The notes under the pieces are model-generated. The model did not search any database, was not told where the DNA came from, and was given only the letters and a program-made list of their open reading frames with translations. The position numbers and the translations under genes are program-made. Source: an uncultured Candidatus Saccharibacteria bacterium (lineage in GTDB: Bacteria > Patescibacteriota > Minisyncoccia > Phycocordibacterales > UBA2100). Taken from it: 64,000 nt of DNA. Of the stretch, positions 17,103 to 24,333 are shown one piece after another (the first letter of the stretch is position 1; every line of letters starts with the position of its first letter). The stretch is taken from the NCBI GenBank assembly GCA_964589005.1, contig CAZPQI010000001.1, forward strand, positions 67,675 to 131,674. Reading direction: 5' to 3'.

Positions 17103-17435
17103 ATGTCTACCACTAAGAAACGAAAAGAAAAACGTACGTACGCCGATCGTCGTGAGTACATGATAAAGGCAGTCGCTAAACGACGCAGAAAGTTACGAAC
17201 TATGGCTTTAGAGCATGGAGGTGGTAAGTGTACGATTTGTGGGTATAAGAAATGCACTAGAGCGCTCACTTTTCATCACCTGGATCCATCTAAGAAAAAG
17301 TTCGGATTATCTGCCAGAGGGATAACTCGCTCATGGGAAAAAACTAAAGCAGAGTTAGAAAAATGTGTTTTGCTATGTATGAACTGCCACATGGAAATAC
17401 ATGATGGAGTTACTAAAGTTCCAAAGAAAAGGTAA
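17103..17435 (+). CDS. HNH endonuclease
   Basis: 110 aa with CxxC...HHLDP...N...CxxCH, a His-Me finger. Lies immediately 3' of the intron-containing tRNA, bracketed by duplicated tRNA 3'-end sequence. Confidence 0.8.
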   Translation: MSTTKKRKEKRTYADRREYMIKAVAKRRRKLRTMALEHGGGKCTICGYKKCTRALTFHHLDPSKKKFGLSARGITRSWEKTKAELEKCVLLCMNCHMEIHDGVTKVPKKR

Positions 17436-17777: not shown

Positions 17778-18173
17778 CTATAAAATTTCTTTGTATTCTA
17801 TATAGTTAGTTTGAATCATTTTCTTCCACCAGACAGTCTCGTTATTACCTCTAATGTCATTCTTACAATAAACTAACAATATTTTAACTTCTTTTTTTGT
17901 TTTGTATTGAGCAACAATACATCTATTCCCAGAGGCTTTTGCGGATTCACTTGGTAAAATTTTAAATTCGCACTTATAGATGACAATGTCACTATCCAAA
18001 TCAGAAATAGAACTAGTTACACTCCGATCAATCATTAAATCAAACTTTCTAAGCATCAGAATAAAAGCTGACCACGGAGTGTTAAAAGAACTTTTATATT
18101 TTTTGCGCAAACTCTTTAAGTATAATTTTTCAGCAACACTTTCTGTAGAGACATCGTAATAATTAGTAGACAT
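17778..18173 (-). CDS. hypothetical 131-aa protein, candidate toxin partner of the Panacea-domain protein
   Basis: Overlaps the upstream HTH-Panacea gene by 11 nt, so translational coupling is likely. A weak RelE/ParE-like C-terminal pattern (NRCIVAQYKTKKEVKILLVYCKND). No confident family assignment. Confidence 0.4.
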   Translation of the reverse strand: MSTNYYDVSTESVAEKLYLKSLRKKYKSSFNTPWSAFILMLRKFDLMIDRSVTSSISDLDSDIVIYKCEFKILPSESAKASGNRCIVAQYKTKKEVKILLVYCKNDIRGNNETVWWKKMIQTNYIEYKEIL

Positions 18174-18858
18174 GCTCTGGGTCTTCTTGGGTTATAAGTT
18201 CGTACGGAATAATTGACCCTTTATCGGCAAAAATATATGGTATCTGCTCATGAGTAAACCTTACAATATCCTGCGTATTTGATTTTTTCCAATTATCCCA
18301 GACGTCGTGCATAAGTTTCTCCTCTGCTTTAGAAATAGAGTTTAAAGAATTTTTTTCTGAACCTCGAGTTTCAGAAAAAGAATATGTATCTTTTCCTTCG
18401 TCACTTTTGTGACTTACCACGATACTTCCGTCATCTTCTAATTCTTGAATTGCACGAAAATACGCATCCGGAACTGGGCCGAATTCAATTTTACGATATG
18501 GCATTCCACTTATGCTCTCTTGATGCTTGTAGTACCAAGCGAAGTCAGCAAGATACAAAAGTTTAGCTAGTTTAGTTTTCTTCAATACCTGCCCACTTTT
18601 TTTTGCATCGCGTAAATACGATAGAATCATCTGCTTATACTTTTCATAGTTAGGTGCTTGATTAGATAGAAGCTCTTGAATAGAGATACCAAACATGTCA
18701 GATAGCTTTTGTGCCTCCAGTAAACTAAGTTCTTTTACACCTTTTTCTAAAGAAACGTAAGATGGTCTAGAGATGCCAATCCTCTCAGCAACTTCACCTT
18801 GCGAAAACTTACGGTCTAAACGAAGACTCTTTATAAATTTAAAATAAGTATTACTCAT
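18163..18858 (-). CDS. XRE-HTH + Panacea (DUF4065/SocA-like) domain protein, putative PanA antitoxin/regulator
   Basis: N-terminal HTH (SQGEVAERIGISRPSYVSLEKG). The C-terminal region carries KLAKLLYLADF...GMPY...FGPVPDAY, the conserved core of DUF4065. Confidence 0.65.
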   Translation of the reverse strand: MSNTYFKFIKSLRLDRKFSQGEVAERIGISRPSYVSLEKGVKELSLLEAQKLSDMFGISIQELLSNQAPNYEKYKQMILSYLRDAKKSGQVLKKTKLAKLLYLADFAWYYKHQESISGMPYRKIEFGPVPDAYFRAIQELEDDGSIVVSHKSDEGKDTYSFSETRGSEKNSLNSISKAEEKLMHDVWDNWKKSNTQDIVRFTHEQIPYIFADKGSIIPYELITQEDPEHVY

Positions 18859-19002
18859 AGAAACAGTATACTACATACAAATTATGCTACGTCAACATCT
18901 TATCCACAGGATGTCACCTTTTTGACATCCTAAACGTTACTTGGTAAAATACAAACCACTTCGAGTGCAACGGAGGATTATTAGTTAAGTTTCTCAAAAT
19001 AT

Positions 19003-19146
19003 ATGGGACACAAGAAAGTAACAAGCAAGAGTATGTCTACCAAGGCAAGCAAGGCTTTGCGTAGCGGAAGCACAGGAAAAACTACGAAGTCACTTGCTGG
19101 CTCTACTCTATCGCAAAGCAAGGGGAAACACAGGAAAGGTAAATAG
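19003..19146 (+). CDS. possible 47-aa Lys/Ser/Thr-rich basic peptide (low confidence)
   Basis: MGHKKVTSKSMSTKASKALRSGSTGKTTKSLAGSTLSQSKGKHRKGK, followed by a hairpin (aaaaccga..tcggtttt) plus a T-rich tail. No clear RBS. Confidence 0.2.
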   Translation: MGHKKVTSKSMSTKASKALRSGSTGKTTKSLAGSTLSQSKGKHRKGK

Positions 19147-19289
19147 TAGAAAACCGACCTAAAGGATCGGTTTTCTACAAAAGTTTTATTTCAAGGTCGT
19201 GCGGAAGGGTGACTTTGTTTTTATATACTAGCAATGAATTAGATGTTTAACTAAGAAAATCGTAGGACAAATGTTAATTTGTTTTAAAA

Positions 19290-20453
19290 TTACCGATTTC
19301 CTTTTGCGCGATTGTGTGTTTTACACAACATCTGGCAATTTTTTAGTGAAGTTGCACCACCCTTGCTCCATGCGGCTACGTGATCAGCGTCCATATCACT
19401 CAAGCTCCATACCTTATCCTTGTTAACATCGTGTCCAATAGCACAATGCTGGCAATTTGATTTCCCTTTGGTTTTGGCTGTCTTTGTTTGCGAGGCATAG
19501 ACAGATTTTTTTGTGGCTTCATCAAAAACTCGAACATCAAGAAGTTTTGTATCTTTTTCACCACCTAAAATATATTCAAATACTCCCCTATGATTTCTAA
19601 CATAAGGGTCTGCATATAATTTGTGAACTGTATCAGATAATTTTTTTGGGTTATATCCTTTCTTATGATGTTCTTCATAGAGCCTTCCCCACTCCAAACC
19701 TTTCATTTCACTTTCTATATCGATAAAAGTTTTAGAAACCCAATCAATTACACTACTAAAGTACGTTTCTAATTCACTGATATTAGCATCTTGTCTATGT
19801 TTACTCATATAATCTCCAACTTTTCCACGACTTACCCAATCAAGTGCTTTTGCCAAAAAATCTTGTCTATTAACACTACCCTTGATGTACGCACCCCATT
19901 TCAGAACATTAGAATTTCGTGAATTACTAAACTCTTCTTTTGCAAGTGTTACAAATGGTCCAGAATATATCGCATTGAGAAGTTCTTGTTCGTTTAATGG
20001 CACTCCTGCAATATTAATTGTCTTAAACCACTCTTTTATTTCACTTTCCTTTCCCATGCATTCATAAATTGTTAATTTAGTTTGCATTATTTCTTCTTGT
20101 TTGTCTTTTGAAATACCACTGAAATATTGCTCCATGCCGTTTTCATCTTTAACGGCAAATTTATTAGTTACATATCGTCCAAAGCTAGTGATTCTTTGTT
20201 GTCCATCCAAGACCTCCAAATTATCTTTTCCAACTTTATTGAAATAAATCAAACCTATTGGATAACCTTTCAGAATTGACTCAATTACAGCCACATCTTT
20301 TTTCCCATCAGCATAAATATAATTCCTTTGATACTCTGGCTGAATTTTTAATTTCCCATTTATCCCGAAAAGTCCTTTTCCCTCTAACTCATTATAAACA
20401 AATCCTTCGCAAATCTCTTTTACAGTGTATGTTGTTTTTAGTATTGTTTTCAT
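19290..20453 (-). CDS. DUF262 (ParB-like NTPase, DGQQR motif) + C-terminal HNH nuclease; restriction/defence endonuclease candidate
   Basis: [12 protein letters not shown] is the DUF262 signature. The C-terminus carries CQHC...[12 protein letters not shown]...[15 protein letters not shown], an HNH motif. Its start lies 1 nt after the stop of the upstream methyltransferase. Confidence 0.8.
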
Positions 20454-20454
20454 T

Positions 20455-21618
20455 TTATTTTTTGTGTTTGATTATAATTCTTGAGTATGGAACAACAGCT
20501 TTATCACCAACCATAATATAAAATCTCCATACAGAAGAATGACCTGGAAGAGACTTGTCTATTTCTTTTGGTATAGGAGTTATTCCCAATTTTTTTCCTA
20601 ATGCCCCAATTCCAATTCCAATTATTTCAAATTGTTCTGGGCAATATTTATCCATAAATGATACTGGCACACCCATTTCTCCCTTATAATCATTTGGAAT
20701 CGCTCTTACCATTGGGATATCAATCGCGTCATAATTAGCATATTTTGGATAATAATCTACTTCATACTTCTTTTTTAAATTATTTAATAGAGTAGTATTA
20801 AATTTAAGATTGTCTTTTTCAGACATTAACTGCAGGGGATGGTGCCTAACTCCATGGTCAATATTTGTATACCACCTTATACCATTTACTCTCCAATAAA
20901 ATTTACCATCTTTTATATATGCATTCTTTTCGTCAGACATTTTTTGTGAATCATATAGTTCTTTTGGAGCAATAAAATATGCTGCTCCCCCATTAAAGTA
21001 TGTAGCACCAAGCCACATAATATTATCTTTAATTAAAGGAAAGATTTCTTTATTCGCAATTGTGTTCAAATTCCCTATAATTACAAATTTTTTATTTGCT
21101 TCCAGTATCCAAGCTAAAAACTCTCTAAATAAACTAAATGGAGGATTTGTAATAATTATATCTGCTTCATCTCTTATCTTTTTTACTTCGCTGCTTCTGA
21201 AGTCTCCATCCCCTTTCATGTATTTCCAGTCTAAATCATCTATATCTATCTTATTATCTCCTGTTTTATCTTTTGTAAGAGTAAAAATCTTCCCTTTTAT
21301 TCTGGTTTTCTTTTTGTCAAACCTTGAACTTTTTTCTTCAAAAAGTGTTGTTTCGTATCCCTCCTTATATTTTTTACTTTCTACAGCATAACTTGTAGAA
21401 ACCAATTTTTTTAATTTAAATTTCTCAAAATTCTGTGCAAAGTATTTAGTGAAGTCGCTCCATTCAGGGTCATCGCAAGGTAAGAGAATAACTTTATCTT
21501 TAAAGACATTGGGGTTATATTCAAGATAAGCATTGATCTCTTTTTCAATGTCTTTATATTGTGTATAAAACTCATCGTTTTTTGCATTCTTCGCATCTGC
21601 CAAATTACTTTGTGCCAT
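20455..21618 (-). CDS. DNA amino-methyltransferase (N6-adenine or N4-cytosine), NPPF motif IV
   Basis: [11 protein letters not shown] is the catalytic motif IV of amino-MTases. The N-terminal DEFYT region is present. GC is very low, about 28-30% in sampled stretches. Confidence 0.8.
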
Positions 21619-21688
21619 AATGATTTCAAAACAATCGGGACTAAACCGATTTTATTATTACCAATACTACTCTTTTTGTACAAAAAAG

Positions 21689-22162: not shown

Positions 22163-22408
22163 GTGAGAAACAACATGACAATACGAGCGCACGATGAAAA
22201 CATCTTCGCCGAAGGAGGTGGACATTATGTGAGAACTATACCAACACGTGGCCCGAGAGCTCCCTACATTGGATTTATAAAAACAACGCTTGGCGAGGCA
22301 GAGGTTGAGTACGACAACAAGGTGGTTTTTGAAGTGTTGGTGAGTGGCGATGAAATTACCGAGGAAGAGTACAATGATGCTGAAGTAACAGTCTTTAATG
22401 ATATATGA
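22163..22408 (+). CDS. hypothetical 81-aa protein, coupled to the downstream DUF2779 gene
   Basis: ATGA stop/start overlap with the next ORF. Acidic C-terminus. Confidence 0.3.
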   Translation: MRNNMTIRAHDENIFAEGGGHYVRTIPTRGPRAPYIGFIKTTLGEAEVEYDNKVVFEVLVSGDEITEEEYNDAEVTVFNDI

Positions 22409-23889
22409 CCAAAATAAACCTTACAAAAACGGATTTTAAGGAGTACCTACTCTGTAATAAGTGCTTGTGGTTGAAGAAGAAAAAACCAGATGAGTATATA
22501 GATGGGGAATTTTCGCAATTCCTTAAAAAACTGATAAAAGATGGTTACGAAGTTGAAAGGTACGCTCAGGGGTTGTTTCCTGGTGGGGTTTTTGTTTCCG
22601 GGGATAAAGAAACACTAATTAAAAAAACAAAGGAGCTACTAAAGGGCACAAAACCAATTTTCCAAGCGACATTTGAAACTATTGAGGGTCTTTTTGCAAA
22701 AATTGATATTCTCAATTTTAATGAGGAAACTAAAAAGTGGGATTTGTATGAAGTTAAAGCGAGCTCGGACATAAAAACTGATATCCAACACAATCACGTA
22801 AAAGACCTTATATTCCAAACTATTTTGCTAGAAAACGCGGGAGTAGACTTGGGTGAGAGTTACATAATTCACCTCAACAAAGAATACAGGCGTAATGGTG
22901 AAGTAGATATTCATGAGCTTCTTACTACTGAAAACCTAAAAGAGGAAGTGGGCGAGCAAAAAGAAGAAGTGCGAGACGAAATGAACCAAGCGTTAAAACT
23001 ATTGGCAAAAGACGAAATTGCGCTTGATAGTTGCGACTGTTTATATAAAAGCAGTGGTCAACACTGCGACTGTTTTGCAAAGTTTAATCCGCAAGTGCCT
23101 GAATACTCAGTGCACAATATTTTAATGGGTAAGAAGCTTAAAGCTTTGGTGGATGACGGAATTGTAGACATTACAAAAATCCCAGAAAACTTTGAACTTA
23201 CTGATATTCAACAGCAAAAAGTAGATTTACAAAAAGACGAACAGCCGATTATTAATCGCGAAGCAGTGGACGAAGCACTCTCGGGGCTGGTGTATCCAAT
23301 ATACTTTTTCGACTACGAAACGTACCCCTCGCCCATTCCTCCGCTTGATGCGTACAAACCAAACCAACACTTTGTATTTCAGGTTTCTATTCATGCCTTG
23401 CATGAAGACGGAGAACTAGAGCACTTTGAATTTTTAGCAGAAGAAATGGAAGGCTCGACAGAAGCGTTGGTGAATATGATGCGCGATAGTATTGGTGACA
23501 CTGGCAGTATTGTGGTTTGGAACGATGTGTTTGAGAAAGGTAGAAATATAGAACTCGCGGAGCTACACCCAGAAGAAAAGGACTTCCTGCTTGGGTTGAA
23601 CGAAAGAACGTTTGATTTAATGAAAGTATTTAAACGCGACTATACTCGCCCAGATTTTTACGGAAGCGCCTCTATTAAAGCTGTATTACCCGCTATGGTG
23701 CCCGAACTCTCGTACAAAGATTTGGAAGTACAGAATGGAACAATGGCAATGAGTGAGTGGAAAAAGATTATCGATGGTGAACTGGGCCTAAAGAGCGCAC
23801 AAAAGGCTCGTAAAGACTTACTCGACTATTGCGGGTTAGATACGTTCGCAATGGTAGAGATATATAAGAAGATTAAGGAAGAGTCGTAA
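22405..23889 (+). CDS. DUF2779-like protein: N-terminal Cys-containing PD-(D/E)xK-type nuclease region + C-terminal DnaQ-like 3'-5' exonuclease region
   Basis: N-terminal LLCNKCLWL with additional Cys (CDCLYKSSGQHCDC). C-terminal YFFDYETY resembles Exo I (DxE) and LDYCGLDTFAMVEIYKK resembles Exo III (YxxxD). Confidence 0.55.
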   Translation: MTKINLTKTDFKEYLLCNKCLWLKKKKPDEYIDGEFSQFLKKLIKDGYEVERYAQGLFPGGVFVSGDKETLIKKTKELLKGTKPIFQATFETIEGLFAKIDILNFNEETKKWDLYEVKASSDIKTDIQHNHVKDLIFQTILLENAGVDLGESYIIHLNKEYRRNGEVDIHELLTTENLKEEVGEQKEEVRDEMNQALKLLAKDEIALDSCDCLYKSSGQHCDCFAKFNPQVPEYSVHNILMGKKLKALVDDGIVDITKIPENFELTDIQQQKVDLQKDEQPIINREAVDEALSGLVYPIYFFDYETYPSPIPPLDAYKPNQHFVFQVSIHALHEDGELEHFEFLAEEMEGSTEALVNMMRDSIGDTGSIVVWNDVFEKGRNIELAELHPEEKDFLLGLNERTFDLMKVFKRDYTRPDFYGSASIKAVLPAMVPELSYKDLEVQNGTMAMSEWKKIIDGELGLKSAQKARKDLLDYCGLDTFAMVEIYKKIKEES

Positions 23890-23934: not shown

Positions 23935-24333
23935 ATGAAGAAGAGAAAATCATTACCTAAAAAGCTTCAACTCGAAATATATAATCGAGATTACTGGACT
24001 TGCCAGTATTGTGGAGATCCTGTGTTTTATGTTCAAACCTTGAAACTATTAGAAAAACTCAGTCCAGACTGCGGATACTATCACCCTAATGGTAAATCAG
24101 AGAAAATGCTAAAGCTGTTTTTTAATAAATGGGCTAGTATTGACCACGTAAAACCATTTACAAAATACGGTGAAGACTCACTTGAAAATCTCGTAACAGC
24201 TTGTTGGGAATGCAATCTTAGAATGGGCAACAAAGATGATAAGCAAGGCAAAAGAAAGCCCAGAAAGATCAAAAAGCATCAAAAAACTAAATCTTGGGAT
24301 GGTCTTTACTCCCTTTATGAGAAGCTAAGATAA
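23935..24333 (+). CDS. HNH endonuclease
   Basis: CQYCGD...IDHVKP...N...CWECN. Confidence 0.8.
   Translation: MKKRKSLPKKLQLEIYNRDYWTCQYCGDPVFYVQTLKLLEKLSPDCGYYHPNGKSEKMLKLFFNKWASIDHVKPFTKYGEDSLENLVTACWECNLRMGNKDDKQGKRKPRKIKKHQKTKSWDGLYSLYEKLR

What the first reader, a model, noticed from the sequence alone, without database searches (positions are those of the whole stretch)
19290..21618. Amino-methyltransferase (NPPF) immediately followed by a DUF262(DGQQR)-HNH nuclease: an R-M-like pair using a nuclease family usually seen in modification-dependent type IV systems
DUF262 NTPase plus His-Me nuclease proteins (GmrSD/SspE-like) are typically stand-alone and modification-dependent. Here one is in tight operon arrangement (1-nt gap) with an MTase, which suggests a classical protect-and-restrict pair or a hybrid system.
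Basis: partly seen in the sequence, partly recalled or inferred. Interest (0 to 1): 0.5.

Follow-up and report, generated by a model that had tools for sequence, protein, structure and literature searches.

The report
Methylase plus DUF262-HNH restriction gene pair
Two back-to-back genes encode an EcoRI-type DNA adenine methylase and a nuclease built like methylation-sensing "type IV" enzymes; the two travel together across bacteria, archaea, plasmids and a phage, so they are almost certainly a protect-and-cut restriction system of a catalogued but unstudied family.

Summary
On the minus strand, a 387-aa EcoRI-family N6-adenine methyltransferase (20455-21618, NPPF) is followed after one base by a 387-aa nuclease (19290-20453). 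The nuclease has an N-terminal DUF262/ParB-like domain (DGQQR) and a C-terminal zinc-bound HNH.

- Starting from the nuclease, 76 of 84 loci carry the methylase upstream on the same strand. Only one of the other eight truly lacks it.
- Starting from the methylase, 50 of 50 loci with enough room carry the nuclease downstream.
- The pairing holds down to 34-39% nuclease identity, on small plasmids and in a Flavobacterium phage.
- PADLOC's "Type II restriction enzyme" and "Type II methyltransferase" profiles match both proteins, the nuclease end to end.

The pair is therefore a new member of a catalogued Type II restriction-modification family. I found no paper or solved structure for that family.

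Unexpected points:
- The nuclease is more conserved than the methylase (72% vs 58% mean identity) although synonymous sites are saturated.
- Methylase and nuclease genes reassort.
- The gap between them is an insertion hotspot for other defence genes.
- The closest folds are BrxU, SspE and DndI.

The recognition site and any NTP dependence remain unknown.

The parts
20455..21618 (-). Methyltransferase gene: 387 aa, EcoRI-family N6-adenine DNA methyltransferase, first gene of the operon
   Evidence: Pfam PF13651 E=8e-118, profile 1-345/345. PADLOC MTase_II E=1.9e-80. 38% identical over its full length to genuine M.EcoRI.
21136..21147 (-). NPPF catalytic motif (motif IV), residues 158-161
   Evidence: T157-N158-P159-P160-F161 are invariant in alignment A3.
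20454..20454 (-). Single-base spacer between the methylase stop (TAA) and the nuclease ATG, suggesting translational coupling
   Evidence: Sequence read.
19290..20453 (-). Nuclease gene: 387 aa, DUF262/ParB-like domain, helical middle region and HNH; the putative restriction endonuclease
   Evidence: Pfam hits. PADLOC REase_II PDLC03418 E=1.7e-82, residues 10-386 on profile 9-371/372. AlphaFold2 model pLDDT 94.4.
19965..20348 (-). DUF262 (GmrSD_N, ParB/Srx-like) putative NTP-binding domain, residues 36-163, with YQR (41-43) and DGQQR (83-87; nt 20193-20207)
19455..19964 (-). All-helical middle region, residues 164-333
   Evidence: Secondary structure of the model. BrxU aligns over 191 residues, more than the DUF262 domain alone (128 residues).
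19293..19454 (-). C-terminal HNH beta-beta-alpha-metal nuclease with a Cys4 zinc site, residues 334-387 (C334, C337, D357-H358, N372, C373, C377, H380-N381)
19146..19178 (-). Terminator-like hairpin (14-bp stem) about 110 nt after the nuclease stop; likely end of the two-gene operon
   Evidence: Consensus match only.
21654..21682 (-). Weak sigma-70-like promoter match upstream of the methylase start
   Evidence: 9/12 match. Promoter-like sites are not enriched over shuffles, so this is only a candidate.

Best explanation
This is a two-gene restriction-modification operon.

The first gene encodes an EcoRI-family SAM-dependent methyltransferase that puts N6-methyl groups on adenines in a defined, still unknown motif of the host DNA. 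The second gene is translationally coupled one base downstream and encodes the restriction nuclease. Its C-terminal zinc-stabilised HNH site cuts DNA that lacks the mark, and host DNA is spared because it is methylated.

The N-terminal DUF262/ParB-like domain keeps the residues that bind and hydrolyse NTP in BrxU, SspE and GmrSD. It therefore probably acts as a nucleotide-controlled switch or dimerisation clamp that licenses the HNH site.

Shown here: gene anatomy, intact catalytic motifs, near-obligate methylase-then-nuclease linkage in both directions, mobility, and the fold. Inferred: that methylation blocks cleavage, and that NTP is involved. Unknown: the recognition sequence and the cut position.
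For: - Domains and motifs are intact.
- PADLOC's Type II REase and Type II MTase models match both proteins, the REase model end to end.
- The methylase lies upstream on the same strand in 76/84 nuclease-seeded loci from Nanoarchaeota, Patescibacteria, Chloroflexota, Bacteroidota, Proteobacteria, Planctomycetes and other groups.
- 50/50 methylase-seeded metagenome loci with room carry the nuclease downstream.
- The pairing persists at 34-39% nuclease identity.
- The pair makes up much of the coding content of 7.5-10 kb plasmids and occurs in a phage, as expected of a self-sufficient mobile restriction-modification module.
- Methylase-first order with a 1-nt gap fits protection being made before restriction.
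- An in-frame methylase-like::nuclease fusion exists.
- SspE and DndI, two of the closest folds, are likewise DUF262 nucleases partnered with a host DNA-modification module.
Against: - No biochemical or methylome evidence is available. No paper on this family turned up in seven full-text searches.
- Palindrome avoidance in the window and in 745 kb of pooled carrier loci singles out no candidate site.
- Every solved structural relative of the N-terminal part is modification-dependent or modification-sensing, not modification-blocked.
- The nuclease is more conserved than the methylase, and methylase clades are swapped between closely related nucleases. That is unusual for two proteins that must each read the same sequence.
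- One locus (L071) has the nuclease with no methylase within 4.4 kb upstream.
Confidence: 0.62

Rival explanations
1. Methylase-guided (Type III- or Type IIG-like) system. The nuclease has no sequence specificity of its own. It docks on the methylase, or reads the methylation state through it, and the DUF262 NTPase drives clamping or sliding before the HNH cut. Modification still protects the host, but recognition resides in the methylase.
For: - The nuclease is more conserved than the methylase in 91% of 6,786 pairwise comparisons (0.71 vs 0.59 mean identity) although 4-fold synonymous sites are saturated in both genes (0.33-0.34).
- The methylase carries three hypervariable insert regions, and its C-terminal modules recur in otherwise distant methylases. 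The nuclease has no hypervariable segment.
- Methylases are exchanged between near-identical nucleases: L073/L122 have nuclease 89% and methylase 48% identity; L092 has methylase 90% and nuclease 81% relative to the window.
- A natural fusion joins the nuclease to a catalytically degenerate methylase-like domain (NPPF replaced by FPSF), as if that domain were kept for DNA recognition.
- The NTP-pocket residues are invariant.
Against: - No evidence of a physical complex.
- HNH Type II enzymes such as KpnI, Hpy99I and PacI read sequence without a separate recognition domain (background knowledge), so the lack of an obvious reader domain proves nothing.
- The variable methylase loops may be neutral.
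- The fusion is a single case, in an organism using genetic code 4.
Confidence: 0.22
2. An m6A counterpart of SspABCD-SspE or Dnd-DndI. The nuclease senses the host's own methyl mark as 'self' through the DUF262 domain, which tunes its NTPase, and it nicks or cuts unmarked invader DNA with little sequence specificity.
Against: The C-terminal nuclease is a canonical HNH, not DUF1524. SspE's modification-sensing hydrophobic patch was not examined here. Nothing here shows that m6A is sensed positively.
Confidence: 0.1
3. A true Type IV (modification-dependent) nuclease that is merely a neighbour of an unrelated or orphan methylase in a defence island.
For: DUF262 nucleases characterised so far (GmrSD, BrxU) are modification-dependent. 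McrA and TagI are among the HNH matches. The region is a low-GC island with other defence-type genes.
Against: Reciprocal near-obligate linkage, same strand, methylase first, often overlapping or 1-12 nt apart, across domains of life and on minimal plasmids. A stand-alone Type IV enzyme needs no methylase, and an m6A-dependent one would be suicidal next to an m6A methylase. There is no DUF1524.
Confidence: 0.05

Closest known systems
EcoRI restriction-modification system (M.EcoRI + R.EcoRI, Type IIP)
   Same: The methylase is a full-length homologue of M.EcoRI: 38% identity, same PF13651 family, same DEFYTQ / CDDP / GDGDFRS / TNPPFS motifs. It is a two-gene mobile module on small plasmids.
   Different: The partner nuclease is unrelated: DUF262-HNH instead of the EcoRI endonuclease. 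Gene order is methylase then nuclease, whereas the EcoRI plasmid has nuclease then methylase. The methylase carries three extra variable inserts. The recognition site is unknown, and neither GAATTC nor AATT appears among the most under-represented palindromes in the window.
GmrSD / BrxU family Type IV restriction enzymes (DUF262 + DUF1524)
   Different: About 200 residues shorter. The C-terminus is a canonical zinc-bound PF01844 HNH, not DUF1524/GmrSD_C. It is always partnered with a methylase, whereas GmrSD and BrxU work alone and need modified DNA. Sequence similarity is marginal (profile E=6.6e-4).
SspE (SspABCD-SspE) and DndI (DndBCDE-DndI) phosphorothioate-linked nucleases
   Different: The modification here is N6-methyladenine made by a single methylase, not backbone phosphorothioation made by a multi-gene cluster. 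The nuclease domain type differs. Whether the mark activates or only blocks is unknown.
HNH-type Type II restriction enzymes (KpnI, Hpy99I, PacI) and McrA
   Same: Beta-beta-alpha-metal HNH catalytic core with structural zinc.
   Different: To my knowledge none of these carries a ParB-like DUF262 domain (background knowledge, not tested here). McrA is modification-dependent.

Membership tests
Type II restriction-modification system | Separate SAM-dependent DNA methyltransferase with an intact catalytic motif | tested here: met
   PF13651 E=8e-118; NPPF at residues 158-161; PADLOC MTase_II E=1.9e-80.
Type II restriction-modification system | Separate endonuclease gene genetically linked to the methylase | tested here: met
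   1-nt gap here. 76/84 and 50/50 linked loci. PADLOC REase_II PDLC03418 E=1.7e-82, end to end.
Type II restriction-modification system | Nuclease cuts at or near a defined sequence, and cleavage is blocked by the cognate methylation | not testable with these tools
   No biochemical data. Palindrome-avoidance analysis was uninformative.
Type II restriction-modification system | Cleavage needs Mg2+ only (no NTP) | not testable with these tools
   Doubtful, because the DUF262 nucleotide-pocket residues Q42, R43, D83, G84 and R87 are invariant across the family.
GmrSD-family Type IV restriction enzyme | N-terminal DUF262 with the DGQQR motif | tested here: met
GmrSD-family Type IV restriction enzyme | C-terminal DUF1524 / GmrSD_C His-Me nuclease | tested here: not met
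   No PF07510 hit. The C-terminus is PF01844 HNH with a Cys4 zinc site. A genuine GmrSD_N+GmrSD_C protein in L173 shows that the model is detectable in this kind of data.
GmrSD-family Type IV restriction enzyme | Stand-alone enzyme that acts on modified DNA and has no cognate methylase | tested here: not met
   Near-obligate methylase partner. The modification dependence itself is not testable here.
SspE/DndI-type modification-coupled DUF262 nuclease | Partner is a phosphorothioation gene cluster (sspABCD or dndBCDE) | tested here: not met
   The only conserved partner is an EcoRI-family methylase. No ssp or dnd genes were seen in the loci examined.
M.EcoRI methyltransferase family (PF13651) | Full-length match above the curated cut-off, with conserved motifs | tested here: met
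   394 bits against a cut-off of 26.4. 38% identity to M.EcoRI over residues 6-387.
M.EcoRI methyltransferase family (PF13651) | GAATTC specificity | not testable with these tools
   38% identity is too low to transfer specificity. There are 23 GAATTC sites in the window and the motif is not among the eight most under-represented 6-mer palindromes.

The most novel reading that the evidence does not exclude
The DUF262-HNH protein is not a sequence-reading Type II enzyme. It is instead a nucleotide-gated nuclease that depends on its methylase, or on the m6A mark itself, to tell self from non-self. That would make it a minimal two-gene, m6A-based counterpart of Type III or SspE-like systems. It would explain three findings: the nuclease is under much stronger purifying selection than the methylase, methylase clades are interchangeable, and a dead-methylase::nuclease fusion exists. 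Given its abundance (more than 8,000 clusters at 90% identity; at least 545 species-representative genomes), it could be a major barrier to DNA entry in Patescibacteria and DPANN archaea.
Probability: 0.3. Interest if true: 0.7.

Novelty: new member of a known kind. Interest (0 to 1): 0.45.

Why it matters
The family is very common. More than 8,000 clusters at 90% identity were scored, and at least 545 species-representative genomes carry it across both prokaryotic domains. It also occurs on plasmids of Enterococcus and lactic acid bacteria and in a phage.

It is nevertheless annotated only as "DUF262 domain-containing protein". It has no solved structure and no publication that I could find.

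It links the ParB-like DUF262 NTPase module, known so far from modification-dependent or phosphorothioate-sensing enzymes, to ordinary methyl-protected restriction. Working out how it operates would show whether DUF262 is a general "modification-state reader".

The unusually conserved nuclease could also be a useful new restriction enzyme. It is a likely obstacle to genetic manipulation of Patescibacteria.

Tried and rejected
1. Inferring the recognition site from palindrome avoidance, in the window and in 745 kb of pooled carrier loci. Only the generic under-representation of GGCC, GATC, CCGG and similar sites appeared, with no outstanding candidate.
2. Single-sequence searches of both proteins against PDB sequences found nothing significant. 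A family profile was needed.
3. The first AlphaFold2 run used 57 close homologues (77-88% identity) and gave pLDDT 56, which was unusable. A diverse 82-sequence alignment gave pLDDT 94.4.
4. A profile search of the 5.8-billion-protein set again returned only the dominant subfamily and no informative names.
5. I could not trace which REBASE enzyme underlies PADLOC model PDLC03418. Seven literature searches and a failed supplement look-up gave no answer, and the afdb50 fold library was unavailable.
7. The idea that the high nuclease identity reflects a recent sweep was rejected, because 4-fold synonymous sites are saturated.
8. The 688-aa methylase::nuclease fusion looked like a possible gene-calling artefact. 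It is real: the only in-frame TGA codons fall at conserved Trp positions (genetic code 4), and the junction has no stop.

Full report
**1. Observation**

The window's minus strand carries two 387-codon ORFs, 20455..21618 and 19290..20453. They are separated by one base: TAA-A-ATG.

The upstream product matches Pfam EcoRI_methylase (PF13651) over the whole profile (E=8e-118) and has TNPPF at residues 157-161.

The downstream product has two recognised domains:
- GmrSD_N/DUF262 at residues 36-163 (E=1.9e-21), with YQR at 41-43 and DGQQR at 83-87.
- A C-terminal PF01844 HNH at residues 334-387, with C334xxC337, D357-H358, N372, C373xxxC377 and H380-N381.

A 14-bp-stem hairpin lies about 110 nt after the nuclease stop, and a weak promoter-like site precedes the methylase. 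The pair sits in a low-GC stretch: 0.345 for 17.0-22.15 kb against 0.405 for the whole window, with the methylase gene at 0.305.

**2. Do the two genes belong together?**

*Starting from the nuclease.* A scan of one genome per species found at least 545 species with a relative. The best 80 loci are 72-83% identical and come from Nanoarchaeota, Pacearchaeota, many Patescibacteria, Chloroflexota, Bacteroidota, Ignavibacteria, Verrucomicrobia, Planctomycetes, and Gamma-, Beta- and Deltaproteobacteria.
- Counting these 80 loci plus the four retrieved, 76 of 84 have an EcoRI-family methylase upstream on the same strand.
- Seven of the eight without one are cut by a contig end. For L018 and L074 this applies once inserted genes are taken into account.
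- Only L071 truly lacks a methylase: a RhuM gene and the nuclease sit inside a menaquinone operon.

*Starting from the methylase.* A metagenome scan seeded with a methylase alignment gave 80 loci. All 50 with at least 1,400 nt of downstream sequence carry a nuclease homologue on the same strand.

*Distant and mobile members.*
- The pairing survives in distant relatives at 34-39% nuclease identity: Macrococcoides, Ligilactobacillus, Variovorax and three metagenomic contigs.
- It occurs on 7.5-10 kb plasmids, where the pair makes up much of the coding content.
- It occurs on Enterococcus faecium megaplasmids and in Flavobacterium phage laban6-1.
- Genuine M.EcoRI (38% identical to the window methylase) instead sits next to R.EcoRI. 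The methylase family therefore serves at least two unrelated nuclease families, but this methylase subfamily is tied to DUF262-HNH.

**3. What do existing libraries say?**

- PADLOC-DB holds a model named 'Type II restriction enzyme' (PDLC03418). It aligns with the nuclease end to end (E=1.7e-82, residues 10-386 on profile positions 9-371 of 372). A 'Type II methyltransferase' model matches the methylase (E=1.9e-80). The family is thus already catalogued as Type II restriction-modification. I could not trace the underlying REBASE entry.
- NCBIfam has no model for either protein. Public annotation reads 'DUF262 domain-containing protein' or 'HNH endonuclease'.
- Seven full-text searches found no paper describing a DUF262-HNH nuclease paired with an EcoRI-family methylase. 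The reviews I read treat DUF262 only in the context of GmrSD, BrxU, SspE, Menshen, Dazbog and PD-T4-2.

**4. Structure**

- With a diverse 82-sequence alignment, AlphaFold2 gave a confident model (pLDDT 94.4, pTM 0.83).
- Foldseek agrees but finds nothing at E<=0.001, so no close solved structure exists.
- A family profile hits BrxU only marginally (E=6.6e-4) and canonical HNH proteins at 1.9e-6 to 1e-3.
- There is no DUF1524/GmrSD_C domain. The protein is therefore a distinct architecture, DUF262 + helical region + classical HNH, and not a GmrSD or SspE family member.
- The nucleotide-pocket residues (Q42, R43, D83, G84, R87) and the catalytic H358 are invariant across sequences only 33-64% identical to the window protein. 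This argues that both activities are used.

**5. Evolutionary behaviour**

In 117 methylase-nuclease pairs:
- Mean pairwise identity is 0.71 for the nuclease and 0.59 for the methylase. The nuclease is the more conserved partner in 91% of comparisons.
- Identity at 4-fold synonymous sites is 0.33-0.34 in both genes, which is saturated. The nuclease's conservation therefore reflects purifying selection, not a recent sweep.
- Methylase and nuclease distances correlate only weakly (Spearman 0.20). Clear reassortments exist: L073/L122 have nuclease 89% and methylase 48% identity, and L092 has methylase 90% and nuclease 81% relative to the window.
- In the earlier 69-pair genome-only set, two methylase clades (about 52% identical to each other) broadly track two nuclease clusters that are still 79% identical.

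The methylase has three hypervariable insert regions (about residues 81-130, 205-245 and 340-376), and its C-terminal modules recur in otherwise distant methylases. The nuclease has no hypervariable segment.

This is the reverse of the usual Type II pattern, in which the endonuclease is the fast-evolving partner (background knowledge).

**6. Mechanism**

*Best explanation (0.62).* A methyl-protected restriction system. The methylase marks adenines. The nuclease cuts unmarked DNA with its HNH site. The DUF262 domain acts as a nucleotide-controlled switch or dimerisation clamp, by analogy with BrxU and SspE.

*Main rival (0.22).* Recognition resides in the methylase and the nuclease is guided by it, as in Type III or Type IIG systems. 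This would account for the conservation asymmetry and the interchangeable methylases. It would also account for a natural in-frame fusion of the nuclease to a degenerate methylase-like domain (NPPF replaced by FPSF, DEFYTQ lost) in an organism using genetic code 4, with no active methylase next door.

*Further rivals.* A related reading (0.10) is an m6A counterpart of the SspE/DndI logic. A plain Type IV enzyme next to an unrelated methylase (0.05) is disfavoured by the synteny.

The recognition site could not be inferred.

**7. Verdict**

It is a new member of a database-catalogued Type II restriction-modification family. That family appears to be biochemically and structurally uncharacterised and has several non-classical features.

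Interest is moderate (0.45). A restriction-enzyme specialist would not be surprised that the pair exists. The family's abundance, the inverted conservation pattern and the DUF262 NTPase in a methylase-linked nuclease make it a worthwhile experimental target.

Noticed in passing
window 17778-18858 (- strand); also L006:2617-3673 and L074:2864-4004: Immediately downstream of the nuclease lies an HTH_3 + SocA/Panacea antitoxin-like gene (18163..18858). It overlaps a 131-aa ORF (17778..18173) by 11 nt, and that ORF has no hit in Pfam, PADLOC, NCBIfam or PHROGs. This is a candidate Panacea toxin-antitoxin pair with a novel toxin. A homologous pair (44% and 47% identity) follows the nuclease in a Saccharibacteria contig (L006), and a Panacea gene alone follows it in L074.
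   Followed up: partly
L007, L010, L016, L018, L021, L026, L029, L035, L036, L039, L052, L059, L067, L071, L074, L083, L173 (between the methylase and the nuclease): The methylase-nuclease intergenic spot is a recurrent insertion site for 0.5-3.2 kb of unrelated, mostly defence-type genes. These include RhuM, T5orf172, AAA_15/OLD-like ATPase, AAA_13, DUF2130, Bro-N, DUF3800, Fic, Schlafen-AlbA_2/HATPase_c_4, a Dam-type methylase, HATPase_c_3 next to a 361-aa ORF that I took for an m5C methylase from its sequence but did not scan, and a NUMOD4/HNH_3 homing-type endonuclease. The methylase and nuclease stay linked around them. This resembles the 'embedded' defence genes described for other systems.
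   Followed up: partly
L172:5001-7067: A 688-aa in-frame fusion of a degenerate EcoRI-like methylase domain (NPPF replaced by FPSF, DEFYTQ lost) to DUF262-HNH. The organism reads TGA as Trp: all in-frame TGA codons fall at conserved W positions. The flanking genes are FtsX/ABC transporter and a lipoprotein-like ORF, and there is no active methylase nearby.
   Followed up: partly
L071:3405-5623: The only locus where the nuclease truly lacks an upstream methylase. RhuM plus the nuclease are inserted inside a menaquinone (futalosine-type) biosynthesis operon in a Saganbacteria genome. I did not check whether a methylase lies elsewhere in that genome.
   Followed up: no
window 19003-19146 (+ strand), promoter-like site 18922-18950: A 47-aa lysine/serine-rich basic ORF lies behind the best sigma-70-like match of the region (11/12, with extended -10 TG). 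It converges on the hairpin at 19146-19178 that also ends the methylase-nuclease operon. Function unknown.
   Followed up: no
window 17103-17435 (+), 22405-23889 (+), 23935-24333 (+): Three further nuclease-type ORFs lie within 7 kb of the pair. Two are small HNH proteins (110 and 132 aa; the latter weakly resembles the IscB/Cas9 HNH). The third is a 494-aa DUF2779 / UU173-family protein with a Cas4-like N-terminus. Together with the low GC content this looks like a small defence or mobile island between fmt/hpf and metK.
   Followed up: no
L173:3914-5548: In a phage-like contig, a distant methylase / homing-HNH / DUF262-HNH module is followed two genes later by a genuine GmrSD (GmrSD_N + GmrSD_C). 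Both kinds of DUF262 nuclease therefore coexist in one island.
   Followed up: no
Lactococcus plasmids, e.g. NZ_MG813925.1:6003-6182 (hits H71-H79): Many Lactococcus plasmids carry an unannotated fragment about 72% identical to residues 26-83 of the methylase. These are probably remnants of decayed copies of this restriction-modification module.
   Followed up: no
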